Source of the DNA: an uncultured bacterium
Lineage (GTDB): Bacteria; Babelota; Babeliae; Babelales; Vermiphilaceae
NCBI GenBank assembly: GCA_963707655.1
Contig: OY970172.1
Span: 320,001-384,000 of the forward strand
Direction: 5' to 3'
DNA: 64,000 nt
The position numbers were made by a program, and so were the translations under genes. Below are positions 29,839 through 58,555 of the stretch, piece by piece. Each line of letters begins with the position of its first letter. Within the stretch, counting starts at the first letter, position 1. The notes below the pieces were generated by a model. That model did no database searches. It had not been told where the DNA came from and saw only the letters and a program-made list of their open reading frames with translations.

Positions 29839-30169
29839 GGGCAACGGCTCTATCCTGTTGTGTGTTCAAAAAACTTTTACAAAGATTTTTTTATGGTATA
29901 AAAAACAGGGTCAAAAAGCACTACTTGTAAAAAAGATCACGCTGTTTGTAGCTGCTTGAACCCTCGTGGATAATGATATGCTTTGGTGGAATAAATGCAA
30001 GCGTGTCGGTATTTTTTCTTGCATTCATGGACGCCTTTTGTTCATTCTGTTAGGATTATTGCTAATAAAAATTCAATTGTGTTCAATGTCTCAGTACGCC
30101 TGTTTAAAGGCGTTGGGGCATCGGCAGACAATAACTCCCCAAAAAGTATAAAAATATATGGAGAAATTT

Positions 30170-31042
30170 ATGAATATTAAAATAAGTTTTTTGGTAATTT
30201 TATGTGTTGTGTGCAATGAAGCTATGGACGGACGATTGCTACCGCCAGCGCACGCCGGAATAGCACCTATAGTGATGCGACCTCCCGCTGCGCCGTACTA
30301 CTGGCACACTGTGGTAAGACCGATTCCGATGAGGCACTTGAGATCGCAATTTTTGCACGCTGCTACCGGGTTGCCGACATCATTGAGGTCGCGCATGGCT
30401 ATTAATAATCCAGTGCAACTGACGCCAGGTTATTCTGCTTTTGTACGATTGACCCATTCTGCCCCCGCGCTTTCTCGCGCTGCAGCACGCGTTGTTGTGC
30501 CCGCTCGCTCTTTCAGCGCCTTACCGCTGCCGCAAGAAAGCGGCGTTACTTTCACCAATTCCTCTCTTGAGTTGACCAGAGCAGAGCTCGAAGCGCTCAG
30601 TGGCCTTGCGGGAATGAACAAAGTGCGCCATGGCATGAAAAAAGTTAGAGCGAGTTCATTGCCGAAACGGGCTCAAATTTTAATGTCTGACTCTGACTGC
30701 GACGAATTTTGCTCGCCGGAATTAGTACGGCATGAGTTACCGCCATTGGATGAGGATAACTGGAGTGTCACACTGGTTAAGAGACGCTTGCGATACACGT
30801 GCAAGTTTTGCGATGTTGTTTGTATGGACCTTTTCCATGCAGAGTGTCACGCATCGAGTAATAAGCATCGGAAAAACTTTAATCTTCCATTATCAGCATG
30901 GAACGAAAAAACATATCGGTGTACGCCGTGCCGGTATGGATCTATAGAGTCGCAACCAATGAGACAACATCTGAAAACCCCCGAGCACAAGAACGCCAAG
31001 CGTAAAGCAAAGAAAGCGAATGAAAATTTTGTGCAGAATTGA
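30170..31042 (+). CDS. Secreted protein with two C2H2 (CX2CX12HX5H) zinc fingers; distant relative of the array family
   Basis: Signal ending NEA-MD; KVRHGMKKVR; CKFC...HASSNKH and CTPCRYG...HLKTPEH; basic tail. Confidence 0.75.
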   Translation: MNIKISFLVILCVVCNEAMDGRLLPPAHAGIAPIVMRPPAAPYYWHTVVRPIPMRHLRSQFLHAATGLPTSLRSRMAINNPVQLTPGYSAFVRLTHSAPALSRAAARVVVPARSFSALPLPQESGVTFTNSSLELTRAELEALSGLAGMNKVRHGMKKVRASSLPKRAQILMSDSDCDEFCSPELVRHELPPLDEDNWSVTLVKRRLRYTCKFCDVVCMDLFHAECHASSNKHRKNFNLPLSAWNEKTYRCTPCRYGSIESQPMRQHLKTPEHKNAKRKAKKANENFVQN

Positions 31043-34813: not shown

Positions 34814-37762
34814 ATGGCAAATCATGAAGAAAATGTACCCAAAGTAAGCTTTAAAGATACGCTCAATTTACCACACACCGATTTTCCTATTCGAGCTACT
34901 CCCGCTATTGATGATCCGGCAATGCTTAAACGCTGGGAAGAAGAAAAGCTATCTGAAAAAACTTTTACCCATAATGAAGGTAAAGAAAAATTTATTTTGC
35001 ATGACGGACCTCCCTACGCGAATGGTAATATTCATATCGGCCATGCGTATAATAAAATTTTAAAAGATATTGTGTGCAAGGCGGAGCGCATGAGCGGCAA
35101 GCACGTGCCGGTAACACCGGGATGGGATTGCCATGGCTTGCCTATTGAATTTAAAGTATCTGCAGCCAATCCCGATGCGAACCCAACAGAGCTAAAAAAG
35201 AAATGCCGCGAGTACGCGCAAAGCTGGATTGATATACAGCGCGAAGAATTTAAAAAATTGGGCGTTTGCATGGATTGGGATCACCCTTACCTGACGATGA
35301 ATCACGAATATGAGGGATCAATCGTAGAGGCCTTTGGCAGATTTGTTGCGGGTGGCTATATTGAACGCAAAAATAAAACAGTGCCGTGGTGCGCATCATG
35401 CAAAACAGTATTGGCTACCGCAGAGATTGAATATCAAGAGCGCAAGGACCCGTCTCTGTATGTTGCATTTCCTCTTGAGCAGCGGGTGACTGATGCATTG
35501 ATTCCGGCGCTGCGGGGTAAACAAGTGAATGTTGTCGTCTGGACAACCACACCATGGACATTGCCATTGAATCGCGCTGTCCTTATACGACCAACTGCTC
35601 AGTACAGTGTCTTGGCCCTGTCTGCAAACACGTACGGCATCGTAGGATCGAAACTCGCCGATAAGTTCTGTGCGCTTCTGGGCATTGAGAAAAAAGTTAT
35701 AGCTGAACTTACCGCTGATCAATTTATTAAAGAAAAAGCAAAAGTTCATCACCCGTTTATTGATGTCCTTGTTCCCGTTATTCCCTCTGACACTGTTTTA
35801 GAAGATGACGGTACCGCTTTTGTGCATTGTGCCCCCGGATGCGGGCCCGAAGACTATGAGACCGGCATTAAGCATAATCTTGAAATTTTTTCTCCTATCA
35901 CGGTTGATGGTAAATACACCGCAGAAGTGATTCCTGCAGATTTGCAGGGAATGTCTGTGGCAGATGGGCAGATTTGGGTTATCAAAACATTGGCTGCGTC
36001 AGATAAATTACTATTTAAAACAAGCATTAAACACTCTTATCCGCACTGTTGGCGCTGCCACAATGGCCTTATTTTCCGTGCAACCAAACAATGGTTCTGC
36101 GATTTGTCAAAGAACGATTTAAAAAATAAAACATTGCACGCGATCGATACCATTACCAACTATCCGGAAAAATCAAAAAATAGGCTGAAGGCAACGGTGG
36201 AAGGGCGTCTGGAATGGTGTTTGTCGCGCCAGCGTATTTGGGGAGTACCAATTCCGGCGTTACTGTGTGCTTCATGCGATTGTACCTATACCAATCAACA
36301 ATTTATCGCTCATGTTGCGAAGCAGATTAAAAAAGAGGGAGTCGAATATTGGGATCGCGCCACATTAGAAGATCTTTTTGGCAATGATCGTTTGCGCTGT
36401 CCGCGCTGCTCGCAAGAGAATTGGATCAAAGAAAAAGATATTCTTGATGTATGGTTCGATTCGGGCATTAGCCATTTTGCGGTGCTTGAGAAAAATCCGG
36501 CGCTCCGTTTCCCTGCCGATATTTATTTAGAAGGCAAAGATCAGCATCGTGGCTGGTTCCAGAGTTCATTGCTCACCGGTATGGTGCTTGAAGATACAGC
36601 CCCCATGAAAGCAATTCTTACCCATGGCTTCACGGTGGATCAACAGGGAAGAAAAATGTCAAAATCATTGGGCAATGTCGTGTCGCCCGAACAAATGATT
36701 AAAGATTTGGGGACCGATGGGTTGCGTCTGTGGGCCGCGAGTATCGATTATGCAGATGATGCAGTTGTATCGCCCGTGCTCCTTGCTAATGTAAAAGAAG
36801 TGCTTCGTAAAATACGCAACACCTGCCGCTTCTTGCTTTCCAATCTGTATGATTATCATCATGAAAAAGACGCGTTGGCCTATAATGATCTCCTGCCAAT
36901 CGATCGACTCGCGATTGAGGAATTGCACCGCTTTAATGAAAAGATGGTGGCATTATATGAAAAATATGATTTCACCGCTCTATTTCATGGTCTTGCTGAT
37001 TATTGCTCAAGCACATTGAGTTCATTTTATCTTGATATTATTAAAGATCGTTTATACGTAGAGCAAAACAATGGTGTGTTGCGCCGTTCTGCGCAAACAA
37101 GCTGCTGGTATATTCTTGATACTTTGACTCGACTAGTTGCGCCAATTTTATCTTTTAATGCTGAACAAATTTCTGATTTTTATCAAAAAGGTAAAAAACA
37201 GTCTATTCATCTGCAATCATTTGCGTATATCCCCTCATTAATTGAGTTGTTGGCTCACAGCAATATGCTTGCAACCCCCCCTAGCCGACCACGCGGGTCA
37301 GAGATCGAGCGGGCAAAGACGCGCTTGGCAATTGATACTATTGCCCTGCAAGAGCAGTTGGTGATGTTTGATATGCAGTGGGATACGCTCAAAGCAATGC
37401 GCTCAGCAGTATTAAAAGCCATAGAGCAGCTGCGCGAGAAGGGAATTATTAAGCATTCATTAGAGGCGAAAGTAACCCTTTATTTTGATGCGGCTGCGCC
37501 ATGGAACGACGCGCTACGAGAATTCATTAATGCATTAAAGCGCACGGCGCAAACAGAGATGACCTTCTTTAAAGAATTTCTCATTGTTTCGCAGGTAACT
37601 TTTGCACAAGATCATCAAACATTACAGTCAACCGATGTTGCCGGTTTTTTTGTTGGTGTTGAAGTTGCGCAGGGTAATAAATGCCCGCGCTGCTGGAATT
37701 GGGATCAGACAAATGATGTTGATCATCTGTGCAATCGGTGTATGAAATTGATAAGAAAATAG
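34814..37762 (+). CDS. ileS: Isoleucyl-tRNA synthetase
   Basis: DGPPYANGNIHIGH, WTTTPWTLP, KMSKS, C-terminal CPRCW zinc site. Confidence 0.98.
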   Translation: MANHEENVPKVSFKDTLNLPHTDFPIRATPAIDDPAMLKRWEEEKLSEKTFTHNEGKEKFILHDGPPYANGNIHIGHAYNKILKDIVCKAERMSGKHVPVTPGWDCHGLPIEFKVSAANPDANPTELKKKCREYAQSWIDIQREEFKKLGVCMDWDHPYLTMNHEYEGSIVEAFGRFVAGGYIERKNKTVPWCASCKTVLATAEIEYQERKDPSLYVAFPLEQRVTDALIPALRGKQVNVVVWTTTPWTLPLNRAVLIRPTAQYSVLALSANTYGIVGSKLADKFCALLGIEKKVIAELTADQFIKEKAKVHHPFIDVLVPVIPSDTVLEDDGTAFVHCAPGCGPEDYETGIKHNLEIFSPITVDGKYTAEVIPADLQGMSVADGQIWVIKTLAASDKLLFKTSIKHSYPHCWRCHNGLIFRATKQWFCDLSKNDLKNKTLHAIDTITNYPEKSKNRLKATVEGRLEWCLSRQRIWGVPIPALLCASCDCTYTNQQFIAHVAKQIKKEGVEYWDRATLEDLFGNDRLRCPRCSQENWIKEKDILDVWFDSGISHFAVLEKNPALRFPADIYLEGKDQHRGWFQSSLLTGMVLEDTAPMKAILTHGFTVDQQGRKMSKSLGNVVSPEQMIKDLGTDGLRLWAASIDYADDAVVSPVLLANVKEVLRKIRNTCRFLLSNLYDYHHEKDALAYNDLLPIDRLAIEELHRFNEKMVALYEKYDFTALFHGLADYCSSTLSSFYLDIIKDRLYVEQNNGVLRRSAQTSCWYILDTLTRLVAPILSFNAEQISDFYQKGKKQSIHLQSFAYIPSLIELLAHSNMLATPPSRPRGSEIERAKTRLAIDTIALQEQLVMFDMQWDTLKAMRSAVLKAIEQLREKGIIKHSLEAKVTLYFDAAAPWNDALREFINALKRTAQTEMTFFKEFLIVSQVTFAQDHQTLQSTDVAGFFVGVEVAQGNKCPRCWNWDQTNDVDHLCNRCMKLIRK

Positions 37763-37792: not shown

Positions 37793-38383
37793 ATGGATTA
37801 TAAATTTTATGGCATGGCGTTGTTGTTTTTATCATGTGGCGCTACGCAGGCAATGGACAATCATCGTCCTCCGATGCAGCCGACAATTAATCTGCCGCTT
37901 GCTTGTGCGGGGCACATACAACCATGCGTGAAGGGATGGAAGTCCCTTTCTGATAAAGAACCAGAAAATTCTTTAGTTCTCGATAGTTTAGGGCGTGGCT
38001 CGTCTACATGGCATGATCGGGACGATGAAACAGTCTACTCTTCGCGTCAAACCATTAAAAATTGTTCAGATTCATATGTTATAAACTATACAAAAGATGG
38101 ACAGGACAATGAATTGAAAATTGGAGATAAACCAACATATTTAGCCCTGAATGCAAATAAAACAATATTGTTGGTTGAAGGCATTGAACTGGCAGTTGAG
38201 TCTGGGGACTGGTGCGATCTTGTTGCTGTGGTTTTAGCAACAAACAAACTATACAAACTTGATGAATATAACGGATCATGTGCCAGTTTTAAACATGCAA
38301 TTGGATTCGATGGAAACAAAGCAGTGGCACATTATAATTTTACCCGTCAGGAATGGGATCTTACTTCTCTCTTGCCGGAATAA
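37793..38383 (+). CDS. Secreted hypothetical protein
   Basis: Signal ending TQA-MD. Confidence 0.65.
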   Translation: MDYKFYGMALLFLSCGATQAMDNHRPPMQPTINLPLACAGHIQPCVKGWKSLSDKEPENSLVLDSLGRGSSTWHDRDDETVYSSRQTIKNCSDSYVINYTKDGQDNELKIGDKPTYLALNANKTILLVEGIELAVESGDWCDLVAVVLATNKLYKLDEYNGSCASFKHAIGFDGNKAVAHYNFTRQEWDLTSLLPE

Positions 38384-38546
38384 GATTTGATACATCCCAC
38401 CCAAACAAAATCAATCTAAAGAGAGCCCCTGTTGCAAAAAATGGGGGCTCTTTCTTTGTTCATTACGATCTCTATGCATGATCACTTCATAGCATATTTG
38501 AGTTGTTTTATATATTCAATGTGAAATTATGCAAGTCCATGGCTTT

Positions 38547-38575
38547 TTGACTGTTTTCATATATTTTTATAAAAT
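38547..38575 (+). promoter_or_regulatory. sigma70-type promoter of the zinc-finger array
   Basis: TTGACT-N17-TAAAAT ~70 bp upstream of 38647. Confidence 0.55.
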
Positions 38576-38646
38576 ATTATTTGTTAGTAATTTTGCTCAG
38601 ATAAAGAATAACTAGAGCCAGAAAATAGAATTGCAAGGACCTTAAG

Positions 38647-39804
38647 ATGAAAAAGACATTATTCGTCATCCTATCGCTGGCTTGCCACAGTTGCTGGGCG
38701 ATGGTCGCAGTTGAAGACGCCCCATTCGGTCAGTTGGCTCTGTTTGACCATGGATTTCAACCGGGTACACCGCTGCCACCCGTTGGAGAAGGGGATGAAC
38801 TTGCACAATGGGCGATGCGGGAGGCAGTTTCTACGCCTGATGCAGCAAACAGCATCGATGCAGTATTGTCTGCAGAGCAAAAGAAAGAAGTCTCTGCTCT
38901 TCATGCAGCATCTTTGGTTACGGTAAAAAAAGGAATGAAAAAGAGAAAAATAGCGAGAAGCGCGCTGTGGTGCGAGGAATGCAGATGTCGGGCAGTAAAT
39001 CTGAAGAACTTTGATCTGCACAAGCAAAGCAAGGGCCATTTAGAAAAAACAGGGCAGCCGTTACCACATTGGTCAGTATACAATTTCACCTGCGCACCAT
39101 GTGAATACGGGTCGTTTCGTAAGCAGGACTTGAATGCGCACATGCTCAGCAATTCTCACCTAATACAAACAGGACAATCGTTGCCGGATTGGCAAGTACA
39201 TAAATACAGATGTAAAACATGTAAATATGGAACGAGCAAAAGAACAGCCATGGATATCCACCTGCTCAGCAAGAGCCATTCAGAAAAAACGGGACAATCG
39301 TTATTAGATTGGTCAACATATGATTTTGCCTGCGAACCATGTGAATATGGAACTTGGAAAAAAGATCACTTCGATCTGCACATGCTCAGCAAGAGCCATT
39401 TAAAAAAAGTGGGACAATTGTTATCAGATTGGCAGGCATGTAAATACAAATGCGAAATATGTGAATATGGCATCGCTCAAAAAGTAAAATTTAATGAACA
39501 CATGCTAAGCAAAGGCCATTTAGAGAAAATAGGGCAATCGTTGGCGTGGGATGCATATCAATATAAATGTGCACCATGTGAATATGGAACCCCGCTGAAA
39601 AGAAGCTTGAATGCACATATGCTCAGTAAGGACCATTTAGAAAAAACAGGACAATCGTTACCAGCTTGGTCAGAATATGATTTTACCTGTGCACTGTGTA
39701 AATATGGAACTCCGCATAAAAGTAACTTAGATAGGCATATGCGAAATAGTAGGCATAAGAAAGCTTATTTGAAATCAATTGAAGTCCTGATTAGGAAAGA
39801 ATAG
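38647..39804 (+). CDS. Secreted tandem zinc-finger protein, paralog 1 (7 fingers)
   Basis: Signal peptide, KKGMKKRK, 7x CX2CX12HX5H. Confidence 0.92.
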   Translation: MKKTLFVILSLACHSCWAMVAVEDAPFGQLALFDHGFQPGTPLPPVGEGDELAQWAMREAVSTPDAANSIDAVLSAEQKKEVSALHAASLVTVKKGMKKRKIARSALWCEECRCRAVNLKNFDLHKQSKGHLEKTGQPLPHWSVYNFTCAPCEYGSFRKQDLNAHMLSNSHLIQTGQSLPDWQVHKYRCKTCKYGTSKRTAMDIHLLSKSHSEKTGQSLLDWSTYDFACEPCEYGTWKKDHFDLHMLSKSHLKKVGQLLSDWQACKYKCEICEYGIAQKVKFNEHMLSKGHLEKIGQSLAWDAYQYKCAPCEYGTPLKRSLNAHMLSKDHLEKTGQSLPAWSEYDFTCALCKYGTPHKSNLDRHMRNSRHKKAYLKSIEVLIRKE

Positions 39805-39841
39805 TTGAGGCCGCAATAGTAATCGCAAGGAAAATAATAAG

Positions 39842-40852
39842 ATGAAAAAGATATTACTCGTTATTCTATTGCTGGCTTGCCCCAGCTGCTGGGCGATGGT
39901 TGACGTTGAATACGCTCCATTCAGTCAGTTGGCTCTGTTTGACTATGGATTTCAACCAGACGCGGCGTTACTAATGGAAGAAGAGGGGAATGAGGACGAA
40001 CTTGCTCAATGGGCAATGCGGGAGGCAGTTTCTGCCCCCGATGCGACGAACAGCAATGATGCAGTATTGTCTACAGAACAAAAGAAGGCAGTCGCCGCTC
40101 TTCATGCGGCATCTTTGGTTACCGTAAAAAAAGGCATGAAACAGAGAAAAATAGCGAGAAGCAAGCTGTGGTGTAAGGAATGTAAATATCGGGCAGAGAG
40201 GCCGGTTGATTTTGATCGGCACAAGCAAAGCAAGGGCCATTTGGAAAAAATAGGACAGCCGTTGCCACATTGGTCAATATATGAATTTACCTGCGCGCCA
40301 TGTGAATATGGGGTCGTACGTAAAAAGGATTTGAATACACACATGCGAAGCAAAGGGCATTTAGAAAAAACGGGACAATCATTGCCAGATTGGCAGGCAT
40401 ATGAATTTACGTGCGCACCATGTGAATATGGAGCTTTGCAAAAAGCAACCTTGAATCTGCACATGCGGAGCAAGGGTCATTTAGAAAAAACAGGACAATC
40501 GTTGCCAGCTTGGCAAGCATATGAATTTACTTGCGTACCATGTGAATATGGGGGCGTGCGTAAGGAGGATTTGAATGCGCACATGCAAAGCAATTCCCAC
40601 CTAATAAAAACAGGACAATCGCTACCAGATTGGCAAGCATATGATTTCACCTGTGCCACATGTAAATATGGAGCCTTGAAAAAAACAACCTTGAATGACC
40701 ACATGCAAAGCAAAAGCCATTTAGAGAAAATAGGGCAATCGTTGGCGTGGGATGCATATAAATACAGATGTGAAACATGTAAACATGGCTTCTTGCAAAA
40801 AGGGCATTTTGATAGACATATGCGCAGTAAGAATCATAAAAAGCTTATTTGA
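39842..40852 (+). CDS. Secreted tandem zinc-finger protein, paralog 2 (6 fingers, tail frameshifted)
   Basis: Same architecture, 6 fingers. Confidence 0.92.
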   Translation: MKKILLVILLLACPSCWAMVDVEYAPFSQLALFDYGFQPDAALLMEEEGNEDELAQWAMREAVSAPDATNSNDAVLSTEQKKAVAALHAASLVTVKKGMKQRKIARSKLWCKECKYRAERPVDFDRHKQSKGHLEKIGQPLPHWSIYEFTCAPCEYGVVRKKDLNTHMRSKGHLEKTGQSLPDWQAYEFTCAPCEYGALQKATLNLHMRSKGHLEKTGQSLPAWQAYEFTCVPCEYGGVRKEDLNAHMQSNSHLIKTGQSLPDWQAYDFTCATCKYGALKKTTLNDHMQSKSHLEKIGQSLAWDAYKYRCETCKHGFLQKGHFDRHMRSKNHKKLI

Positions 40853-40920
40853 AAGCATTGAAATCCTGACTAGGAAAGAATAGCTAAGGCCGCAATAGTA
40901 ATCGCAAGGAAAATAATAAA

Positions 40921-41967
40921 ATGAAAAAGACATTATTCGTTATCCTATTGCAGGCTTGGCCCAGCTGCTGGGCTATGGTTGACGTTGAAGACGCTCCATT
41001 CAGTCAGTTGGCTCTGTTTGACCATGGATTTCAACCAGACGCGGCGTTACTAATGGAAGAAGAGGGGCATGAGGACGAACTTGCTCAATGGGCAATGCGG
41101 GAGGCAGTTTCTACACCCGATGCGGCGAACAGCAATGATGCATTACTGCCTACAGAACAAAAGGAGGCAGTCGCCGCTCTTCATGCGGCATCTTTGGTTA
41201 CCGTAAAAAAAGGCATGAAAAAGAGAAAAATAGCGAGGAGCGAGCTCTGGTGTAAGGAATGCAAACATCGGGCAGTAAATCTGTATAACTTCGATCTGCA
41301 CAAGCAAAGCAAGGGCCATTTAGAAAAAACAGGACAACCATTACTCCATTGGTCAGCATACAATTTTACCTGCGCGCCATGTGAATATGGGGCGCTTCGT
41401 GATAAGGACTTGAATGTGCACATGCTAAGCCGTTCTCACCTAATAAAAACAGGACAATCGTTACCAGATTGGCAAGCATATAAATACAGATGTGAAACAT
41501 GTAAATATGGAGCTTGCAAAAAAACAACCTTCGATGTGCACGTGCACAGCAGGAGCCATTTAGAAAAAACAGGACAATCGCTGCCAGATTGGCAAGCATA
41601 TGAATTTACGTGTGCACCATGTGAATATGGAAGCCCGCAAAAAAGTAACTTGAATTTGCACATGCAAAGCAAAGGTCATTTAGAGAAAATAGGGCAATCG
41701 TTATCAGATTGGCAAGCATATGAATTTACTTGCGAACCATGTGAATATGGGGCCGTGCGTAAGGACGATTTGAATGCACACATGCACAGCAGGAGCCATT
41801 TAGAAAAAACAGGACAATCGTTACCAGATTGGTCAGCATACAATTTCACCTGTGCACTATGTGAATATGGAACCCCGTATGAAAATGACTTAGATAGACA
41901 TATGCGCAGTAAGAAGCATGAGAAAGCTTATTTGCAATCAATTGAAGTCCTGACTAGGAAAGAATAA
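40921..41967 (+). CDS. Secreted tandem zinc-finger protein, paralog 3 (6 fingers)
   Basis: Same architecture, 6 fingers. Confidence 0.92.
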   Translation: MKKTLFVILLQAWPSCWAMVDVEDAPFSQLALFDHGFQPDAALLMEEEGHEDELAQWAMREAVSTPDAANSNDALLPTEQKEAVAALHAASLVTVKKGMKKRKIARSELWCKECKHRAVNLYNFDLHKQSKGHLEKTGQPLLHWSAYNFTCAPCEYGALRDKDLNVHMLSRSHLIKTGQSLPDWQAYKYRCETCKYGACKKTTFDVHVHSRSHLEKTGQSLPDWQAYEFTCAPCEYGSPQKSNLNLHMQSKGHLEKIGQSLSDWQAYEFTCEPCEYGAVRKDDLNAHMHSRSHLEKTGQSLPDWSAYNFTCALCEYGTPYENDLDRHMRSKKHEKAYLQSIEVLTRKE

Positions 41968-41993
41968 ATAGTAATTACAAGGAAAATGATAAG

Positions 41994-43151
41994 ATGAAAA
42001 AGATATTACTCGCTATCATAATGCTGACGGCCTCCAGCGGCAGGGCGATGCTTGAAGTTGAAGATGCTCCATTCGGTCAGTTGGCTCTGTTTGACTATGG
42101 ATTTCAATCAGGTACGCCGTTGTCACTGGTTGTAGAAGGGGACGAACTTGCACAATGGGCGATGCGGGAGGGAGCTTCTACACCTGATGCGGCAAACAGC
42201 ATCGATGCATTATTGTCTACAGAACAAAAGAAAGCAGTCGCTGCTCTTCATGCGGCATCTTTGGTTACCGTAAAAAAAGGCATGAAACAGAGAAAAATAG
42301 CGAGAAGTAAGCTGTGGTGCAAGGAATGCAAATATCGGGCAGGAAATCTGAATCACTTTGATGAGCACAAGCGAACCAAGGGCCATTTGGAAAAAACAGG
42401 ACAACCATTACCACATTGGTCAACATATGATTTTTCCTGCGAACCATGTGAATATGGGGTCGTGCGTAAGAAGGATTTGAATATACACATGCGAAGCAAA
42501 GGCCATTTAGAAAAAACGGGACAATCGCTACCAGATTGGGCAGCATACGATTTTACCTGCGCACCATGTGAATATGGAGCTTTGAAAAAAGCAACTTTGA
42601 ATTTGCACAAGCGAACCAAGGGCCATTTAGAAAAAACAGGACAATCGCTACCAGATTGGTCAACATATGATTTTTCCTGCGAACCATGTGAATACGGAAC
42701 CATGAAAAAAACAACCTTGAATGACCACATGCAAAGCAAGAGCCATTTAGAAAAAGTAGGACAATCGTTATCAGATTGGCAAGCATACGATTTCACCTGT
42801 GCACTATGTAAATATGGCACCACGCAAAAAGTAAACTTGAATGCACACATGCAAAGCAAGGGCCATTTAGAGAAAGCAGGGCAATCGTTGGCGTGGGATG
42901 CATATCAATATACATGCGCACCATGTGAATATGGAACCCCGCAAAAAAGATGCTTGAATGCACACATGCTCAGCAAGGATCATTTAGAAAAAACAGGACA
43001 ATCATTGCCAGATTGGCAAGCATACAATTTCACCTGTGCACTATGTAAATATGGAACTCCGCATAAAAGGAACTTAGATAGACATATGCGCAGTAAGAAG
43101 CATGAGAAAGCTTATTTGAAATCAATTGAAGTTCCGGCTAGGAAAGAATAG
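41994..43151 (+). CDS. Secreted tandem zinc-finger protein, paralog 4 (7 fingers)
   Basis: Same architecture, 7 fingers. Confidence 0.92.
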   Translation: MKKILLAIIMLTASSGRAMLEVEDAPFGQLALFDYGFQSGTPLSLVVEGDELAQWAMREGASTPDAANSIDALLSTEQKKAVAALHAASLVTVKKGMKQRKIARSKLWCKECKYRAGNLNHFDEHKRTKGHLEKTGQPLPHWSTYDFSCEPCEYGVVRKKDLNIHMRSKGHLEKTGQSLPDWAAYDFTCAPCEYGALKKATLNLHKRTKGHLEKTGQSLPDWSTYDFSCEPCEYGTMKKTTLNDHMQSKSHLEKVGQSLSDWQAYDFTCALCKYGTTQKVNLNAHMQSKGHLEKAGQSLAWDAYQYTCAPCEYGTPQKRCLNAHMLSKDHLEKTGQSLPDWQAYNFTCALCKYGTPHKRNLDRHMRSKKHEKAYLKSIEVPARKE

Positions 43152-43188
43152 CTAAGGCAGAAATAGTAATCGCAAGGAAAATAACAAG

Positions 43189-43986
43189 ATGAAAAAGACA
43201 TTATTCGTCATCCTAGTGCTGGCTTGCCCCAGCTGCTGGGCGATGGTTGAAGTTGAAGATGCTCCATTCGGTCAGTTGGATTTGTTTGACTATGGATTTC
43301 AACCGGGCGCGGCGTTGCTGATGGAAGAAGAGGGGAATGGGGACGAACTTGCGCAATGGGCGATGCGGGAGGCAGTTTCAGCACCCGATGCGGTGAACAG
43401 CAATAATGCATTACTGTCTACAGAACAAAAGAAGGCAATCGCTGCTCTTCATGCGGCATCTTTGGTTACCGTAAAAAAAGGCATGAAAAAGAGAAAAATA
43501 GCGAGAAGTAAGCTGTGGTGCAAGGAATGCAAATGTCGGGTAATAAATCTGAAGAACTTTGATTTGCACAAGCAAAGCAAGGGCCATTTAGAAAAAACAG
43601 GACAGCCGTTACCACATTGGTCAGCATATGAGTTTACTTGCGCACCGTGTGAATACGGGGCTTTTCTTAAGCAATCTTTGAATGCACATATGCGAAGCCG
43701 TTCCCACCTAATAAAAACAGGGCAATTGTTACCAGTTTGGCAAGCATATAAATACAGATGTGAAATATGTAAATATGGAACTCCGCATAAAGGAAACTTG
43801 AATACACACATGCAAAGCAAGGGCCATTTAGAGAAAACAGGGCAATCGTTGGTGTGGGATGCACATAGATACAGATGTGAAATATGTGAACGTGGCTTCT
43901 TGGAAAAAGGGCATTTTGATAGGCACATGCGCACTAAGAAGCATGAGAAATCAGTAACTAAAAAAACAATCGTGAGGAAAAAATAA
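43189..43986 (+). CDS. Secreted tandem zinc-finger protein, paralog 5 (4 fingers)
   Basis: Same architecture, 4 fingers. Confidence 0.92.
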   Translation: MKKTLFVILVLACPSCWAMVEVEDAPFGQLDLFDYGFQPGAALLMEEEGNGDELAQWAMREAVSAPDAVNSNNALLSTEQKKAIAALHAASLVTVKKGMKKRKIARSKLWCKECKCRVINLKNFDLHKQSKGHLEKTGQPLPHWSAYEFTCAPCEYGAFLKQSLNAHMRSRSHLIKTGQLLPVWQAYKYRCEICKYGTPHKGNLNTHMQSKGHLEKTGQSLVWDAHRYRCEICERGFLEKGHFDRHMRTKKHEKSVTKKTIVRKK

Positions 43987-43987
43987 G

Positions 43988-44929
43988 ATGAAAAAGATAT
44001 TACTCGTTATCCTGTTGCTGGCTTGCCCCAGATGCTGGGCGATGGGCGAAGAAGCCTCATACTACGATCAGTTGGCCCTGTTTGACCATAGATCTCAACG
44101 AGATGTTCCCTTTTTATCAATGGAACAATGTGATGTGGACGGAATCGCGCCATGGATTATTGATGAGGAAAATCCGTTTAGCCAGTGGAATCCATCTGAC
44201 TATGAATTGCGACTAGGCACGCCATTATTGACACCGAGGCAAGAAGATGATGGGTGTGAGCTTGAGTCTTTGGCAATGCAGGGCAATGTTGTGGATCCTC
44301 ATGAGGAGCTGGACATCGGTGCATCATTGTCTACAAAACAAAAGAAAGCAGTCGCCGCTCTTCATGAGTCATCTTTGATTACCGTAAAAAAAGGTATGAA
44401 AGAGAGAAGAATAGCTAGGGGTAAGTTGTGGTGCAAGGAATGCGGATATAATGTCTGGCATAAAGGAAACTTGAATGCACACATGAAAGGCAAAGTTCAT
44501 CTAAGAAGAACAGAACAATCGTTACTAGATTGGCAAGAGCATAAACACAGATGTGCACCATGCAAATATGGTGACTGGCATAAAGGACACTTGAATGCAC
44601 ACATGAAAAGCAAAGCGCATCTAAGAAAAATAGAACAATTGTTGTCATCGGTATCGGGGCAATATCAATGTCCACCATGTGGATATGACACCCCTTTGAA
44701 GCGTAGCTGGAATGCGCACGAGCGTAGTAGGGACCATTTAGAAAAAACAGGACAGTTGTTAAAAGATTGGCGCTCATATGAATATAAATGTAAAACATGT
44801 AAACATGGCATGGCTTCCAGGCTTCAATGGGATACACACGTGCGAAGCAAGCAACATGTGCAAACAAGTAAACTGCTTATTGAAAATCAACGGAAAAGCG
44901 CCAGAGTAAAAGAAATAGCTAAAGCTTGA
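43988..44929 (+). CDS. Secreted tandem zinc-finger protein, paralog 6 (4 fingers, divergent)
   Basis: Same signal peptide and KKGMKERR block; longer acidic region; 4 fingers. Confidence 0.9.
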   Translation: MKKILLVILLLACPRCWAMGEEASYYDQLALFDHRSQRDVPFLSMEQCDVDGIAPWIIDEENPFSQWNPSDYELRLGTPLLTPRQEDDGCELESLAMQGNVVDPHEELDIGASLSTKQKKAVAALHESSLITVKKGMKERRIARGKLWCKECGYNVWHKGNLNAHMKGKVHLRRTEQSLLDWQEHKHRCAPCKYGDWHKGHLNAHMKSKAHLRKIEQLLSSVSGQYQCPPCGYDTPLKRSWNAHERSRDHLEKTGQLLKDWRSYEYKCKTCKHGMASRLQWDTHVRSKQHVQTSKLLIENQRKSARVKEIAKA

Positions 44930-45015: not shown

Positions 45016-46767
45016 TTATCTTATTGATTTAAGAACATCAATCAACTCTTTGAGCGATTTTTGCAAGGTATAGACCGATGCCGGCACTGGAACCAGTTGC
45101 ATTAAATTAGCATTGGGGACTGGTTGAGGTTCGCCCAAAAATGCCCATCGTTTATCAGCAGTAATGGTGCTTTCCTGATTTTTTATAGCATCAATCTGTT
45201 GCATTATTGAATTAATTGTTGCGGTTTTTGCGATTATTTCATCAACATCTATCTTATAATATTTTTTTTGTTCCGGGCTGAACTTGCTAAAGCGAACACG
45301 AAGAGCATTTGCTTTCTCCATAGTGCGGTCCGCGGCGTTTATTGCGCTTTGCAACGCATTTGCTGCTTGAGTATTAACGGGTGTAGCAGTACTCAGTACC
45401 AAAGTCTCTATATTTTTAAAGTTATTATCAATAAGAATATCAGTTACTCTATCCAGAGAAGAAGATAAATTGTCAAAGCTTTTTTCAGTTCGTTTATCTT
45501 CTTCACCTTTCTTTTTTTCATCCTCTTTTTTTGGTTTATCTGTTGCTGCCGGTTTAGCTGCTTCTTTTTTGCCTTCAGCCGGTTTTGGCATTGGCGCAGC
45601 GCCGCCTGCTTTTGGTGCGGATGCACCGCCGCCAGCGTTACCTCCTGTTTTACCGGTACCGCCGCCGGTTGATCGTGTTCCGGCTTCGGTTGATGAAGGT
45701 TGGTTGTCTGCAGAACCAAAACGAGGTTGTCCTGTTTGCTGATACAATGCATCATTTGAATAGCCACTGCCATATGAAGGGGTTTGTCTTTGCACCTTGC
45801 TGTATTGTGGTGCGGGTGCCTCATAACCAGCGGTGATTACCGGCGTTGCTGGGCGGGGGGCAGCACTTTTTTGTGCTTCCTGTATGCTTTTTGTTTTTTC
45901 TTCACTTAATTTAGCGGCCTTTGGTCCGTATGTGCCAATGATGCTTTCAAGGCTTGCGGGCAAACCGAGTTTGTAAAATGCCTCACTAATGCAGCTGAGC
46001 GCTTTTTTAAAGGCGGTGCTTGATTTTTCAGTCAAAGTAGTAGAACCAAATTCAGGAATTTCAATATTTGGTTCATTGATGCGTAACACACTTTCTACGC
46101 GTGCGAGGTTGTTGCGTACAACTTCATTTTTAATCAATTCAGGCAAATATTTATATTCTTTTGTTTTTGGATCGCGATCTTTCATCTTTGAGAGTTGTTG
46201 TATCAAAAGCTCTATCTGGCCTTTTAGTGTTTCCCAGCGGTCAAAAGATGGATTGATGCCGCCTTCTTTGAGCCATGCGCTCACTTTTATTGAAAAATCG
46301 GGAATAAGAGCACTTTTGCTTATTATTTTTTCAAGTCTTGTTAAAAGACTATCAATAATGGCAGCAGCTTCATCTATTTTTGAAGAAGCAATCGGTTTAG
46401 CCGCCGGTTTTGTTTCCTGCGTTACCGGCGTAGAAACAACAGGAGTTGTTTCTGTTATTGGTGTTTCAATCGGTTTAATTTTTTCTTCCAGTTGAGTAGC
46501 CTCTTTTTCAACTTCTGCCCAAAACTCTTCAAGAAATTTTTCCTGCTCGGCCGGTGGTAATTTAGCAACTTCCTTTTCAAGCTCTTGCATGATTTCCATA
46601 AAAAATTGCTGTTGCTGTTCCTCATTGAGTCCCTGTACCATCTCCATCATTTCGCGTTCTTGCGGATCTAAGCGAGAAAGGTCGAGCGCGCTCGCGCTTG
46701 TCACTACGATTGCAGATCCCCATATAATGAGCGATAAGAGCACAAGAAGATTTCTGAAAAAATTCAT
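45016..46767 (-). CDS. Large exported hypothetical protein with low-complexity linker
   Basis: Signal peptide, E/Q-rich helices, G/P/K-rich linker. Confidence 0.75.
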   Translation of the reverse strand: MNFFRNLLVLLSLIIWGSAIVVTSASALDLSRLDPQEREMMEMVQGLNEEQQQQFFMEIMQELEKEVAKLPPAEQEKFLEEFWAEVEKEATQLEEKIKPIETPITETTPVVSTPVTQETKPAAKPIASSKIDEAAAIIDSLLTRLEKIISKSALIPDFSIKVSAWLKEGGINPSFDRWETLKGQIELLIQQLSKMKDRDPKTKEYKYLPELIKNEVVRNNLARVESVLRINEPNIEIPEFGSTTLTEKSSTAFKKALSCISEAFYKLGLPASLESIIGTYGPKAAKLSEEKTKSIQEAQKSAAPRPATPVITAGYEAPAPQYSKVQRQTPSYGSGYSNDALYQQTGQPRFGSADNQPSSTEAGTRSTGGGTGKTGGNAGGGASAPKAGGAAPMPKPAEGKKEAAKPAATDKPKKEDEKKKGEEDKRTEKSFDNLSSSLDRVTDILIDNNFKNIETLVLSTATPVNTQAANALQSAINAADRTMEKANALRVRFSKFSPEQKKYYKIDVDEIIAKTATINSIMQQIDAIKNQESTITADKRWAFLGEPQPVPNANLMQLVPVPASVYTLQKSLKELIDVLKSIR

Positions 46768-48999: not shown

Positions 49000-49614
49000 T
49001 TATTGTTGTGCTCGTAAGGTTTGCAAGTCAATCGGTGCCACGCGTTCGGCGGCAGTTCTATGTTTGGCGCTATTGTTGTGTGAGGTAAAACGTTCGCGCC
49101 GATCAGTGCCATACTCGCACGTTTTACACATATATTCACGAAGGTACCACGCTACTTGCGGTAGTCCAGTAGCAGCTCTATGCGCAGTACTGTGGTTATG
49201 TTGAATAAGATGTGAAAAAACATCAGTGCCATACTTGCACGTTGCACACGTATATGCACGAAGGTACCACGCTACTTGCGGTAGTCCGGTAGTAGTTCTA
49301 TGTTTGGCGGTGTTATTATGTTTAACAAGGTCTGCAGGCTGATCAGTGCCATACTTGCAAATCTCACATATATATTTACGCTTACGCCACGTTGAAGCAA
49401 CACGCTTTTTGGTAGCTAATCGAGCCGCTTTTAAGTTTTTGGATACTTTTACGCTCGTGGGCATGGGCTTTGCATCAGCATTTACTTTCCCTATGTTTGC
49501 CAGTATAGTAACAGCCAATTGAATATCACCGATTCTTACTGGATTGACTTCTTGAGCCATTACCAGAGAAAATGTGCTGAGTATAATTATTTTTATCATC
49601 ATCATCATCATCAT
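49000..49614 (-). CDS. Secreted 3-finger C2H2 zinc-finger protein (second subfamily)
   Basis: Signal peptide, TKKR..WRKRK, 3x CxxCxYGTD...HX5H with TGLPQVAWY linkers. Confidence 0.88.
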   Translation of the reverse strand: MMMMMMIKIIILSTFSLVMAQEVNPVRIGDIQLAVTILANIGKVNADAKPMPTSVKVSKNLKAARLATKKRVASTWRKRKYICEICKYGTDQPADLVKHNNTAKHRTTTGLPQVAWYLRAYTCATCKYGTDVFSHLIQHNHSTAHRAATGLPQVAWYLREYMCKTCEYGTDRRERFTSHNNSAKHRTAAERVAPIDLQTLRAQQ

Positions 49615-58331: not shown

Positions 58332-58555
58332 AAAATCCTTATTTTTCAATATTTTATTGCATAATTAAGATATGAATAAGTATACCGCGCTCCGGTAAAA
58401 AGAAAAAGATAGCCTTTTCTTTTATATAAAGACACTATTTGCATTAGTATCAAACCTTTTTTTAAAGACTATTTCTCTTAAATGTGTTGAAAATTTAATG
58501 ATTAACTTGATACTATTAAATTAATATTTGAAATGCTTTAAATTAAGGAAGAAAT

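What the first reader, a model, noticed from the sequence alone, without database searches (positions are those of the whole stretch)
38971..44860. Finger variability concentrates at the DNA-recognition helix positions
Seen: aligning the fingers by eye, the scaffold and linker (HLEKTGQSLPDW) are conserved. The heptad before the first His (positions -1 to +6) varies: RKQDLNA, KRTAMDI, KKDHFDL, QKVKFNE, LKRSLNA, HKSNLDR, RKKDLNT, QKATLNL, RKEDLNA, KKTTLND, QKGHFDR, QKSNLNL, RKDDLNA, YENDLDR, HKGNLNT. Positions +1 (mostly K), +4 (L/F) and +5 (N/D) are nearly fixed, while -1, +2, +3 and +6 change, as do the two residues before -1. Established: -1, +2, +3 and +6 are the base-contacting positions of classical C2H2 fingers. 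However, H-x5-H spacing with long linkers is typical of matrin/JAZ-type dsRNA-binding fingers. Inference: diversifying selection on sequence specificity. The ~17-aa Trp-containing linker implies a binding geometry different from TGEKP arrays, and the target could be DNA or RNA.
Basis: partly seen in the sequence, partly recalled or inferred. Interest (0 to 1): 0.85.

Follow-up and report, generated by a model that had tools for sequence, protein, structure and literature searches.

The report
Secreted bacterial zinc-finger array gene cluster
A tiny host-dependent bacterium carries six side-by-side genes for exported proteins built from eukaryote-style zinc fingers that differ mainly at the residues that normally read DNA, which suggests a family of proteins sent into the host cell to bind its nucleic acids.

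Summary
Six tandem + strand paralogs (38647-44929) encode 34 fingers, all C-x2-C-x12-H-x5-H with a 40-aa period. All 15 quoted heptads are present. Entropy peaks at helix positions -1, +2, +3 and +6 and the two residues before them. Zinc ligands, core and the Trp linker are conserved. Non-synonymous change is 3.2-fold more frequent at these six sites than elsewhere, while synonymous change is equal.

Diversifying selection is not shown: dN/dS at these sites is 0.8-1.05, against about 0.3 elsewhere, and never exceeds 1. Finger types are shared across paralogs and units are mosaic, so repeat shuffling contributes.

Each protein has a Sec-type signal peptide, an acidic region, a basic NLS-like patch and the finger array. 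The 1.09 Mb genome has ATP/ADP translocases, many ankyrin genes and secretins.

In its phylum, 81 of 261 genomes carry classical C2H2 fingers. Two related genomes I inspected hold tandem clusters of signal-peptide proteins whose fingers vary most at -1, +3 and +6.

Best reading: exported, host-directed nucleic-acid-binding effectors working on a TALE- or KRAB-ZNF-like principle. Whether the target is DNA or RNA is open. I found no description of them in print.

The parts
38647..39804 (+). g1: 385 aa, with signal peptide, acidic region, basic patch and 7 fingers
   Evidence: ORF; fingers; Pfam zf-C2H2_2 37.6 bits and zf-C2H2_jaz 27.5 bits
39842..40852 (+). g2: 336 aa, 6 fingers
   Evidence: Pfam; AF2 two-finger unit has pLDDT 84.5
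40921..41967 (+). g3: 348 aa, 6 fingers
41994..43151 (+). g4: 385 aa, 7 fingers; colinear with g1
43189..43986 (+). g5: 265 aa, 4 fingers
43988..44929 (+). g6: 313 aa, 4 fingers; the divergent paralog, with a 39-residue insert in the acidic region
38971..44857 (+). Span of the 34 finger units (120-nt coding repeats) across the six genes
38647..38703 (+). Signal-peptide-like N-terminus of g1: MKK, a hydrophobic run, then small residues before a conserved A-M junction. The same is seen in all six genes.
   Evidence: Alignment A1. Read by eye; no predictor was run.
38926..38952 (+). Basic K/R patch (KKGMKKRKI in g1) directly before finger 1; reads like a nuclear localisation signal
   Evidence: Invariant V-K-K-G-M-K..R.IAR columns in A1. 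The function is inferred.
38547..38575 (+). Best promoter-like site upstream of g1 (10 of 12). No terminator-like site lies in the gaps between g1 and g6.
   Evidence: a consensus scan only; the total number of sites is not above the shuffles.
49000..49614 (-). Dispersed family member, 204 aa, with 3 H-x5-H fingers and a Trp linker (P0003)
30158..31042 (+). Dispersed, more distant member, 294 aa, with 2 H-x5-H fingers (P0004)

Best explanation
The six genes encode a young, tandemly amplified family of exported proteins from an obligately host-dependent bacterium. Each protein has four parts in order: a Sec-type signal peptide, an acidic and hydrophobic region, a lysine/arginine patch that reads like a nuclear localisation signal, and an array of 4-7 eukaryote-type C2H2 fingers.

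Shown:
- The genes are intact.
- The zinc ligands, core, linker and N-terminal region are under purifying selection.
- Amino-acid change concentrates on the exposed face of the first helix (-1, +2, +3, +6) and the two residues before it.
- Finger types are shared and reordered among paralogs.

Inferred: the proteins leave the bacterium, reach the host nucleus or cytoplasm, and bind host nucleic acid as arrays. Each finger's variable face would set what it reads, and the conserved K(+1), N/D(+5), H-x-x-S-K-x-H loop and Trp linker would set the common geometry. New specificities would arise by point change at the variable sites and by recombination among the 120-nt repeats. This is the logic of TAL effectors, KRAB-ZNF and PRDM9 arrays.

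DNA is the somewhat likelier target, and structured or double-stranded RNA is the main alternative.
For: Real genes under selection:
- All 136 ligand codons are intact, with 0 non-synonymous and 14 synonymous changes on the finger tree.
- dN/dS is 0.32 for non-variable finger sites and 0.27 for the N-terminal region.

Concentration of change.

Helix identity is kept in some lineages and replaced in others:
- Four sister pairs have pN 0.07-0.08 below pS 0.22-0.40 at the variable sites.
- Four others have pN 0.45-0.62 there, against 0.03-0.08 in the rest of the unit.

Shuffling:
- Fingers cluster by type across genes.
- 26 of 34 units have discordant nearest neighbours along their length; for example, g4f4 has the 5' part of g1f4/g4f2 and the helix of g2f5.

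Architecture:
- A1 alignment.
- The acidic region has net charge -8 to -16, and the finger region +8 to +26.

Host dependence and export capacity of the genome:
- Three TLC ATP/ADP translocase ORFs, against 0 of 14 control genomes.
- 32 Ank_2 matches.
- Two secretins.

Family context:
- The same-genus genome has three tandem signal-peptide finger genes.
- Metagenome proteins P0012, P0033, P0051, P0078 and P0099 share the signal peptide, basic patch, H-x5-H fingers and Trp linker.
- PF00096 occurs in 81 of 261 genomes of the phylum, against 1 of 14 controls.
- Tandem clusters in G053 (7 genes, 48 fingers) and G093 (5 genes, 21 fingers) have a signal peptide, an acidic region, a basic patch and TGEKP-linked fingers. 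Their entropy peaks at -1, +3 and +6.

By sequence, the closest solved fingers are DNA-binding CTCF fingers (E 3.8e-11).
Against: - No experiment exists, and no RNA data set holds the locus.
- dN/dS at the variable sites is not above 1, so adaptive diversification is unproven.
- Exposed helix positions are also the most variable in unrelated H-x5-H arrays.
- The Pfam models that fit best are zf-C2H2_2, zf-C2H2_jaz and zf-met. By their Pfam descriptions and my recall, their characterised members bind RNA or ribosomal particles largely without base specificity.
- The signal peptide and the NLS-like patch were read by eye, not predicted by a tool.
- A Sec signal takes a protein only to the periplasm. 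The route across the outer membrane and into a host compartment is unknown, and the finger cysteines would have to stay reduced.
- The N-terminal region shows no detectable homology to the classical-finger proteins of related genomes (best E 0.35 in a database of 167 sequences). The shared architecture may therefore be convergent.
- The host is unknown.
Confidence: 0.55

Rival explanations
1. The proteins are JAZ/ZFa-like binders of double-stranded or structured RNA, in the host or elsewhere. They would recognise helix shape through the conserved basic and polar residues. The variable helix face would then be merely unconstrained surface, so the variation carries no specificity code.
For: - All 34 fingers have H-x5-H spacing.
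- PF12171 is over its cut-off in 6 of 6 proteins and PF12874 in 4 of 6.
- The predicted finger has a helix-kink-helix.
- The lowest-rmsd single-finger matches are RNA-associated: JAZ 2mkn at 2.3 A over 33 residues, TUT1, and a pre-60S factor. All have Z of 2.3-2.7.
- dN/dS at the variable sites is about 0.8-1.05, as expected for neutral surface.
- Unrelated H-x5-H arrays show the same trend.
Against: - Four sister-finger pairs keep their helix residues under purifying selection (pN 0.07-0.08 against pS 0.22-0.40).
- Finger types persist across paralogs, which neutral surface would not explain.
- The profile search of solved structures ranks DNA-binding fingers first, and no JAZ chain is among the 60 listed.
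- The conserved aromatic sits at the second residue after Cys2, as in CTCF/REST-type fingers.
- Sister clusters in the phylum use classical TGEKP fingers with variation at -1, +3 and +6.
Confidence: 0.22
2. The fingers are protein-binding modules. The arrays would act as adaptors or decoys for host proteins, and the variable face would be a protein interface.
For: - C2H2 fingers can mediate protein contacts. A 2026 Nucleic Acids Research paper says so in its abstract (seen in the listing).
- The net charge per finger is modest: +8 to +26 over 170-292 residues.
- The genome invests heavily in protein-binding ankyrin repeats.
Against: - The regular 40-aa array with an invariant linker and a conserved K at +1 is more typical of a polymer-tracking array.
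- The basic patch and the acidic-basic bipartite layout fit a nucleic-acid factor.
- No partner is known.
Confidence: 0.1
3. The proteins act within the bacterium's own envelope, for example as periplasmic zinc-binding or storage proteins, and never reach a host.
For: - A Sec-type signal alone predicts only periplasmic delivery.
- Each protein offers 4-7 zinc sites.
Against: - The eukaryote-type fold and its hypervariable helix face are unnecessary for metal storage.
- Neither the K/R patch nor the tandem diversification has a role in this model.
- Published genomes of a phylum with the same hallmarks attribute signal-peptide proteins to host manipulation (passages of PMC6561590 and PMC4378268).
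Confidence: 0.05

Closest known systems
JAZ/ZNF346, dsRBP-ZFa and U1/matrin-type fingers (Pfam PF12171 zf-C2H2_jaz, PF12874 zf-met, PF12756 zf-C2H2_2)
   Same: - C-x2-C-x12-H-x5-H spacing.
- The H-x-x-S-K-x-H loop.
- Fingers separated by more than the 7-residue classical linker.
- A predicted helix-kink-helix.
- Pfam scores over the cut-off.
   Different: - The conserved aromatic is at the second residue after Cys2, not the fourth.
- The linker is a fixed 17 residues with an invariant Trp.
- These are bacterial, signal-peptide-bearing, tandemly amplified genes.
- Nucleic-acid preference is untested.
Classical polydactyl C2H2 factors (CTCF, PRDM9, KRAB-ZNF arrays)
   Same: - Beta-beta-alpha fingers in arrays.
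- Variability on -1, +2, +3 and +6.
- Conserved scaffold and linker.
- Minisatellite-like coding repeats that recombine.
- Tandem gene clusters.
- The best sequence matches among solved structures.
   Different: - H-x5-H instead of H-x3-4-H.
- A 17-residue linker instead of TGEKP.
- dN/dS is not above 1 here.
- The genes are prokaryotic and carry an export signal.
TAL effectors of Xanthomonas and Ralstonia (function recalled, not tested here)
   Same: - A bacterial protein delivered to a eukaryotic host.
- A tandem array of near-identical repeats that differ at a few residues.
- A basic nuclear-import-like motif and an acidic region.
- Evolution by repeat recombination.
   Different: - No sequence or fold relation; no TAL Pfam hit at E up to 0.1.
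- The repeat is a zinc finger of 40 aa, not a 34-aa helical hairpin.
- The signal is Sec-type rather than type III.
- Delivery and DNA binding are unproven.
Secreted C2H2 nuclear effectors of the rice blast fungus (MoHTR1/2). I saw only the abstract of PMC12488382 in the listing; the rest is recalled.
   Same: A pathogen-secreted protein with an NLS that acts in the host nucleus.
   Different: - A eukaryotic pathogen.
- No tandem paralog cluster or long arrays with a Trp linker.
Ros/MucR prokaryotic zinc finger
   Same: A bacterial protein with Cys2His2 zinc coordination.
   Different: By recall, Ros/MucR is a single finger inside a larger globular domain and is a cytoplasmic regulator. No PF05443 match appeared at E up to 0.1. 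Here there are arrays of eukaryote-type fingers with an export signal.

Membership tests
C2H2 zinc finger superfamily (classical, PF00096) | Cys-x2-4-Cys-x12-His-x3-5-His ligand spacing | tested here: met
   34 of 34 fingers are C-x2-C-x12-H-x5-H
C2H2 zinc finger superfamily (classical, PF00096) | Beta-beta-alpha fold with a hydrophobic core (an aromatic plus Leu at +4) | tested here: met
   The AF2 two-finger model (pLDDT 84.5) gives two strands followed by a helix in each finger. Y is at the second residue after Cys2 in 16 of 16 internal fingers, and L/F/M is at +4. The aromatic position is shifted relative to the classical consensus.
C2H2 zinc finger superfamily (classical, PF00096) | Pfam PF00096 score over the gathering cut-off (25.2 bits) | tested here: inconclusive
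   g4 scores 27.5 bits, over the cut-off. g5 (23.2), g2 (20.8) and g1 (17.3) are under it. g3 and g6 are not listed at E up to 0.1.
Classical Kruppel-type array | A seven-residue TGEKP-type linker between fingers | tested here: not met
   The linker is 17 residues from H2 to the next C1 and carries an invariant Trp.
JAZ / U1-matrin type fingers (PF12171, PF12874) | H-x5-H spacing and Pfam score over the cut-off | tested here: met
   PF12171 scores 22.8-43.7 bits against a cut-off of 22.6 in 6 of 6 proteins. PF12874 is over 21.2 in 4 of 6.
JAZ / U1-matrin type fingers (PF12171, PF12874) | Kinked or extended helix carrying the second His | tested here: met
   DSSP on the model gives helix 19-26, a two-residue break, then helix 29-35. 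This is a prediction only.
JAZ / U1-matrin type fingers (PF12171, PF12874) | Binding of double-stranded RNA | not testable with these tools
   Needs EMSA or NMR titration.
JAZ / U1-matrin type fingers (PF12171, PF12874) | Closest solved structures belong to this class | tested here: inconclusive
   The sequence profile ranks CTCF, PRDM9 and ZNF64 first, and no JAZ chain is among the 60 listed. The structure search gives Z of 4 or less throughout, with JAZ 2mkn at Z 2.3 and rmsd 2.3 A over 33 residues.
TAL effectors | 33-35-aa TAL repeats (Pfam TAL_effector) | tested here: not met
   No such Pfam hit at E up to 0.1 in any of the six proteins. The resemblance is in logic only.
Ros/MucR | ROS_MUCR domain (PF05443) | tested here: not met
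   Not among the Pfam hits at E up to 0.1.
Signal-peptide H-x5-H Trp-linker finger proteins (the family defined here) | N-terminal hydrophobic signal, a K/R patch, then two or more C-x2-C-x12-H-x5-H fingers at a 40-aa spacing, with Trp 7 residues before Cys1 | tested here: met
   The six window genes, P0003, P0012, P0033, P0051, P0078 and P0099 fit. Trp is at that position in 14 of the 23 fingers of the distant members.

The most novel reading that the evidence does not exclude
A whole bacterial phylum of protist parasites may have built TALE-like arsenals out of eukaryote-type zinc fingers. These would be exported transcription-factor mimics, made of an acidic activation-like region, an NLS and a polydactyl finger array. 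Their base-reading residues and finger order would be continually reshuffled in tandem gene clusters to retarget host genes. The window's H-x5-H, Trp-linker subfamily would be a new array geometry with its own recognition code, possibly for DNA-RNA hybrids or dsRNA.
Probability: 0.3. Interest if true: 0.9.

Novelty: new variant of a known kind. Interest (0 to 1): 0.78.

Why it matters
Sequence-reading repeat arrays delivered by bacteria into eukaryotic cells are so far known essentially from TAL effectors and their relatives. If these proteins are exported and bind host nucleic acid, they would be a second, independent solution built from the eukaryote's own zinc-finger module.

The solution would be spread widely in one phylum. 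81 of 261 genomes carry classical C2H2 fingers, and the two related clusters I inspected put their variability at the textbook contact positions.

This would matter in three ways:
- It would give a direct handle on how barely studied obligate parasites of protists reprogram their hosts.
- It would offer a natural experiment on zinc-finger recognition codes. Near-identical scaffolds differ at six positions, and a fixed 17-residue Trp linker departs from the TGEKP geometry.
- It would be a case of host-domain capture followed by minisatellite-like diversification in a 1 Mb genome.

Tried and rejected
- Word-indexed homology search: only the window's own g5 and g6 were returned among 6316 candidates.
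- Scan of genome contigs with alignment A1: 603 pattern matches, none confirmed, and the own genome was left out.
- Two-finger profile A2 over the order: 0 of 260 other genomes at E up to 1e-5, so the exact subfamily is not found in those species representatives.
- AF2 of whole g2: mean pLDDT 52, not usable.
- Foldseek against the PDB: no match at E up to 0.001. VIA-align wide: best Z 4.0. Neither discriminates the DNA-binding from the RNA-binding finger classes.
- HMM of the N-terminal region against ORFs of the classical-finger loci and distant members: best E 0.35 among 167 sequences, at the level of the decoys. Common descent of the N-terminal module is not shown.
- Sequencing runs: no RNA holder is listed. 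The contigs of four soil or peat runs that I laid are short (151-299 nt) and nearly all identical to the window, so they gave no population variation to test the helix sites.
- ESM Atlas: the recognition score is below the usable level. The nearest clusters are eukaryotic and giant-virus C2H2 proteins at 0.91-0.92, which are leads only.
- Earlier-findings look-ups: nothing.
- Tree-based site dN/dS is compromised by mosaic units. I therefore also used closest pairs. Codon site models (PAML or HyPhy) are not installed and were not run.
- The first script for one search failed on a stop codon in the short last unit of g2 and was corrected.
- Literature:
  - 'Dependentiae' with 'zinc finger': 1 irrelevant paper.
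  - Babeliales, Vermiphilaceae or Dependentiae with C2H2 terms: nothing relevant in the 15 papers listed.
  - Nucleomodulin with C2H2: no bacterial case in the 15 listed.
  - C2H2 with eukaryotic-like proteins, endosymbiont or amoeba: only Ros/MucR references.
  - Effector with C2H2 in intracellular bacteria: nothing relevant in the 20 listed.
- Rejected readings:
  - Eukaryotic contamination: the genes lie in one 1.09 Mb contig between ileS/murD and rplI/dnaB, and their GC of 0.41-0.43 is close to their surroundings.
  - Lipoprotein signal: the Cys at residue 13 is absent in g3 and g4.
  - Antisense ORFs inside the repeats (for example 42353-42859 on the - strand) as genes: they are by-products of the repeat.

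Full report
WHAT IS THERE

The window is G000:C1:320001-384000 of a single-contig genome of 1,091,075 bases, scored 88.6% complete. Between ileS (34814-37762) and a convergent gene at 45016-46767 lie six intact + strand ORFs, separated by 1-68 bases:
- g1 38647-39804
- g2 39842-40852
- g3 40921-41967
- g4 41994-43151
- g5 43189-43986
- g6 43988-44929

Tandem Repeats Finder sees 120-nt and 240-nt periods in five of them.

A motif scan finds 7, 6, 6, 7, 4 and 4 fingers. All 34 are C-x2-C-x12-H-x5-H. Successive fingers are 40 residues apart, or 39 where the linker reads ...SLAWD. All 15 quoted heptads and the linker are in the listing.

The genome holds no further copies outside this neighbourhood. 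All 11 matches to g4 fall in window positions 30-50 kb. Besides the six genes they comprise a three-finger gene at 49000-49614 (-) and a two-finger gene at 30158-31042 (+).

IS THE VARIABILITY PATTERN REAL?

Yes. Over the 16 internal 40-aa units of g1-g5, entropy runs as follows:
- +2 2.91, the residue before -1 2.78, +3 2.41, +6 2.28, two residues before -1 2.06, and -1 1.88 bits.
- The 11 linker columns average 0.46 bits.
- The four ligands are at 0.
- +1, +4 and +5 lie between 0.67 and 0.87 bits.

Over all 34 fingers, the six positions hold ranks 1-6 of the 24 non-ligand columns. The four a-priori contact positions hold ranks 1, 3, 4 and 5 (chance 4.7e-4).

As a control I took the 46 unrelated proteins from the library search that have six or more fingers of the same spacing (390 fingers). 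There too the contact positions are the most variable, but only 2.25 against 1.84 bits, compared with 2.95 against 1.61 here. Part of the pattern is therefore what any beta-beta-alpha finger shows on its exposed helix face. The sharpness here comes from an unusually uniform scaffold and linker.

IS IT DIVERSIFYING SELECTION?

It is not shown.

I built a finger tree and counted changes by codon parsimony, relative to the global synonymous rate:

| Sites | dN/dS |
|---|---|
| -1, +2, +3, +6 | 1.05 |
| The two preceding residues | 1.03 |
| +1, +4, +5 | 0.33 |
| First five linker residues | 0.48 |
| Ligands | 0 (0 non-synonymous, 14 synonymous changes) |

The units are mosaic, so I repeated the count on the 19 closest finger pairs:

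| Sites | omega |
|---|---|
| Six variable sites | 0.80 |
| Four contact sites | 0.87 |
| Rest of the finger unit | 0.32 |

The variable sites do not exceed the neutral expectation (binomial p 0.81). The rest fall far below it (p 6e-11). The N-terminal region has omega 0.27, with dS of 0.07-0.65 between paralogs.

Non-synonymous change is 3.2 times more frequent at the six sites than elsewhere (Fisher p 5e-11; the pairs are not independent). Synonymous change is equal (p 0.48). The concentration therefore acts at the protein level. It is not a mutation hotspot, and it does not come from uneven gene conversion.

The pairs fall into two kinds:
- Four pairs keep their helix: g2f2/g4f2, g2f3/g4f3, g1f7/g4f7 and g2f6/g5f4. 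Their pN is 0.07-0.08, below pS of 0.22-0.40.
- Four pairs have a replaced helix on an almost unchanged scaffold: g1f4/g4f4, g4f1/g2f1, g3f4/g2f3 and g5f2/g3f2. Their pN is 0.45-0.62, against 0.03-0.08 in the rest of the unit.

The first kind argues against mere neutral surface. The second kind can be adaptive bursts or cassette exchange.

HOW THE ARRAYS EVOLVE

Fingers cluster by type across genes, not within genes. The first fingers group together (SH-aLRT 99). So do the terminal fingers (96), an 'R-K-x-D-L-N' type (98) and others.

By my reading of that tree and of the helix sequences:
- g1 and g4 are colinear.
- g2, g3 and g5 carry the same types in other orders and numbers.

In 26 of 34 units, the nearest neighbour differs between the 5' part, the helix part and the 3' part. 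For example, g4f4 matches g1f4/g4f2 at 0.05 in the 5' part and g2f5 at 0.07 in the helix. The segments are short, so single cases are noisy.

One low-depth metagenome contig joins 42075 back to 39924, that is, the N-terminal region of g4 to that of g2. This is a possible recombinant or an assembly chimera.

The picture is a young tandem family whose 120-nt repeats recombine, as in PRDM9 and KRAB-ZNF arrays and TAL effector repeats (comparison from established knowledge).

WHAT THE PROTEINS LOOK LIKE

All six begin with M-K-K, a hydrophobic run and small residues before a conserved A-M junction. Then come, in order:
- an acidic, aromatic-rich stretch;
- a conserved A-A-L-H-x-x-S-L-x-T-V-K-K-G-M-K motif;
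- a K/R patch directly before finger 1.

Net charge is -8 to -16 for the region after the signal and +8 to +26 for the patch plus fingers. I read the N-terminus as a Sec signal peptide and the patch as a nuclear localisation signal. Both readings are by eye and inferred. A lipoprotein signal is unlikely, because the Cys at residue 13 is missing in g3 and g4.

A promoter-like site lies at 38547-38575, after a terminator-like hairpin at 38420-38453. No terminator-like site falls in the short gaps between the genes, so co-transcription is possible (a consensus scan only).

The whole-protein model is poor (pLDDT 52). A two-finger unit folded with the 28 two-finger units as its alignment reaches pLDDT 84.5. 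In each finger it shows two short strands, a helix from +1 to the residue after the first His, a two-residue break, and a second helix through the second His. A short turn sits at the Trp. Confidence is lowest over E-K-T-G-Q-S-L-P. The flexible linker may thus be only about eight residues, with the Trp segment belonging to the next finger. This is an inference from the prediction.

WHICH FINGER CLASS?

| Pfam family | Scores (bits) | Cut-off | Proteins over cut-off |
|---|---|---|---|
| zf-C2H2_2 | 23.7-51.2 | 26.9 | 4 of 6 |
| zf-C2H2_jaz | 22.8-43.7 | 22.6 | 6 of 6 |
| zf-met | 16.2-50.4 | 21.2 | 4 of 6 |

These rank ahead of PF00096, which only g4 passes.

A profile of the two-finger unit searched against solved chains ranks DNA-binding fingers first: CTCF at E 3.8e-11, then ZNF64 and PRDM9. 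No JAZ chain is among the 60 listed. The conserved aromatic two residues after Cys2 is the CTCF/REST-type variant, consistent with the PF24540 and PF13909 hits.

Structure searches do not discriminate. Foldseek finds nothing at E up to 0.001. In VIA-align, every Z is 4 or less, with two-finger DNA binders at rmsd 4-6 A and single-finger RNA-associated matches at lower rmsd, such as JAZ 2mkn at 2.3 A over 33 residues.

The fingers are therefore a hybrid: an H-x5-H helix-kink-helix like JAZ or U1-type fingers, joined to a hairpin and helix start like CTCF-type fingers. These tools cannot settle DNA against RNA.

RELATIVES

The word-indexed search of 5.8 billion proteins returned only the window's own g5 and g6. 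The exhaustive profile search of 1.84 billion representatives gave 1355 hits at E up to 1e-3 and 131 at E up to 1e-10. Most are eukaryote-like:
- P0006 carries an insect zf-AD domain.
- P0007 is zf-met/JAZ-rich.

Five proteins of 252-318 aa share the whole layout: P0012, P0033, P0051, P0078 and P0099. Each has a hydrophobic N-terminus, an acidic region, a K/R patch and three or four H-x5-H fingers at 40-aa spacing with a Trp in the linker. P0106 is a fragment of this kind. P0017 is a 71-aa fragment almost identical to the start of g2.

The same-genus genome G001 has three tandem signal-peptide genes with one or two such fingers.

Across the 23 fingers of these distant members, the following are conserved while the helix varies:
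- Trp seven residues before Cys1 (14 of 23)
- Tyr two residues before Cys1 (14 of 23)
- G-T-[DN] after the aromatic
- Leu or Phe at +4
- Asn after His1 (13 of 23)

Their +1 and +5 also vary. The two residues before -1 are conserved there, although they vary in the window.

THE ORGANISM AND ITS PHYLUM

The genome encodes:
- three TLC-type ATP/ADP translocase ORFs, against 0 of 14 control genomes;
- 32 Ank_2 matches;
- two secretins;
- a peptidoglycan and Lol machinery in the window.

Its phylum, as held here, is one order of 261 species-level genomes of 0.7-2.4 Mb.

These are the hallmarks published for Dependentiae (TM6). In that phylum, 44% of the CDS of one isolate carry signal peptides. [quoted passage not shown] The name itself was not verified. 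Neither paper mentions C2H2 fingers: 0 occurrences in each.

The family profile A3 hits 13 of 260 other genomes at E up to 1e-4. The ORFs behind most of these hits have a signal-peptide-like start, an acidic region, a K/R patch and classical TGEKP-linked H-x3-H fingers.

PF00096 matches 81 of 261 genomes, 59 of them over the cut-off, against 1 of 14 control genomes.

I looked closely at two clusters.

| Genome | Tandem genes | Fingers | Entropy at -1 / +3 / +6 (bits) |
|---|---|---|---|
| G053 | 7 | 48 | 2.66 / 2.96 / 2.83 |
| G093 | 5 | 21 | 2.16 / 2.89 / 2.95 |

- In G053, every other column is at or below 2.03 bits.
- In G093, the scaffold is nearly invariant.
- These are the textbook DNA-specificity positions.

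The window's cluster is thus one variant of a recurrent theme in this phylum. An HMM of its N-terminal region finds no significant match in the loci fetched (best E 0.35). Shared architecture is shown. Shared ancestry of that module is not.

HOW IT MOST LIKELY WORKS

Shown:
- intact genes;
- purifying selection on ligands, core, linker and N-terminal region;
- protein-level concentration of change on one face of the first helix;
- finger types that persist and are reordered;
- a host-dependent genome.

Inferred, in decreasing order of confidence:
- export through Sec, with an onward route that might use the secretin system;
- action in the host;
- nuclear import through the K/R patch;
- array binding to nucleic acid, with specificity set by the variable face.

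I put 0.55 on this host-directed nucleic-acid-binding effector reading. Within it, DNA is somewhat ahead of RNA because of the classical sister clusters and the CTCF-type similarity.

The rivals:
- Shape-reading dsRNA binder with a neutral variable face: 0.22.
- Protein-binding fingers: 0.10.
- Periplasmic role: 0.05.

NOVELTY

C2H2 fingers, JAZ-type fingers, eukaryote-like domains in intracellular bacteria, and the hypervariable-contact-residue logic are each known. Their combination is not described in anything I could find (searches; passages). That combination is:
- exported bacterial proteins with polydactyl eukaryote-type finger arrays;
- tandem paralog clusters;
- variability on the recognition face.

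Subscription journals and supplementary tables are not covered by these searches. A mention in a domain table of a comparative-genomics paper could exist.

I rate it a new variant of a known kind, with interest 0.78.

Noticed in passing
L053 (G053:C1:232500-243500) and L054 (G093:C2:1-4500): Related genomes hold tandem clusters of 7 and 5 genes. Each gene encodes a signal peptide, an acidic region, a K/R patch and classical TGEKP-linked H-x3-H fingers (48 and 21 fingers). Their entropy peaks at -1, +3 and +6. PF00096 occurs in 81 of 261 genomes of the phylum.
   Followed up: partly
window 37793-38383 (+): The ORF just upstream of the cluster (196 aa, no Pfam hit) also starts with a hydrophobic signal-like segment ending ...A-T-Q-A-M-D. 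The same junction motif is seen in distant family members P0078 and P0099. It may be another exported protein.
   Followed up: no
window 45016-46767 (-): A convergent 583-aa ORF has a hydrophobic N-terminus, a coiled-coil-like acidic part and a Gly/Ala/Pro-rich low-complexity middle. Only sub-threshold Pfam hits were found (TssO at 16.9 bits).
   Followed up: no
window 42075 joined to 39924 (run X4, one contig, depth 3.75): A peat-metagenome contig joins the N-terminal region of g4 back to that of g2. It is either a recombinant or copy-number variant of the cluster, or an assembly chimera across paralogs.
   Followed up: no
window 39000-44900, - strand: Long antisense ORFs of up to 168 aa (for example 42353-42859) run through the finger repeats. 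They repeat with the same 120-nt period and are most simply by-products of the coding repeat.
   Followed up: no
window 38000-44000: The cluster is strongly purine-rich on the coding strand: AT skew is up to 0.22 and GC skew up to 0.13, against about 0 and 0.07 nearby. Its GC of 0.41-0.43 is close to its surroundings.
   Followed up: no
window 23650-25107 (+): Thioredoxin reductase is fused to a C-terminal thioredoxin domain in one 485-aa ORF (TIGR01292 at residues 51-349, TIGR01068 at residues 383-480).
   Followed up: no
window 2214-3962 (-) and 58556-59176 (+): Two further candidate host-interaction genes: a 582-aa protein with six delta-60 repeat matches, and a 206-aa ankyrin-repeat protein.
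   Followed up: no
window 15421-16803 (+) and 56128-58349 (-): dnaA lies about 40 kb from dnaN-recF, on the opposite strand. Cumulative GC skew rises up to about 54 kb and then falls, so a skew turning point lies inside the window.
   Followed up: no
P0026, P0070 (library proteins); ESM Atlas rows 9-10: Small AT-rich proteins have C-x2-C-x-Y-x-T...H-x2-S-K-K-H fingers spaced 35-41 aa apart. Giant-virus (Nucleocytoviricota) zf-met clusters are among the nearest neighbours. This hints that viruses of protists carry similar finger arrays.
   Followed up: no
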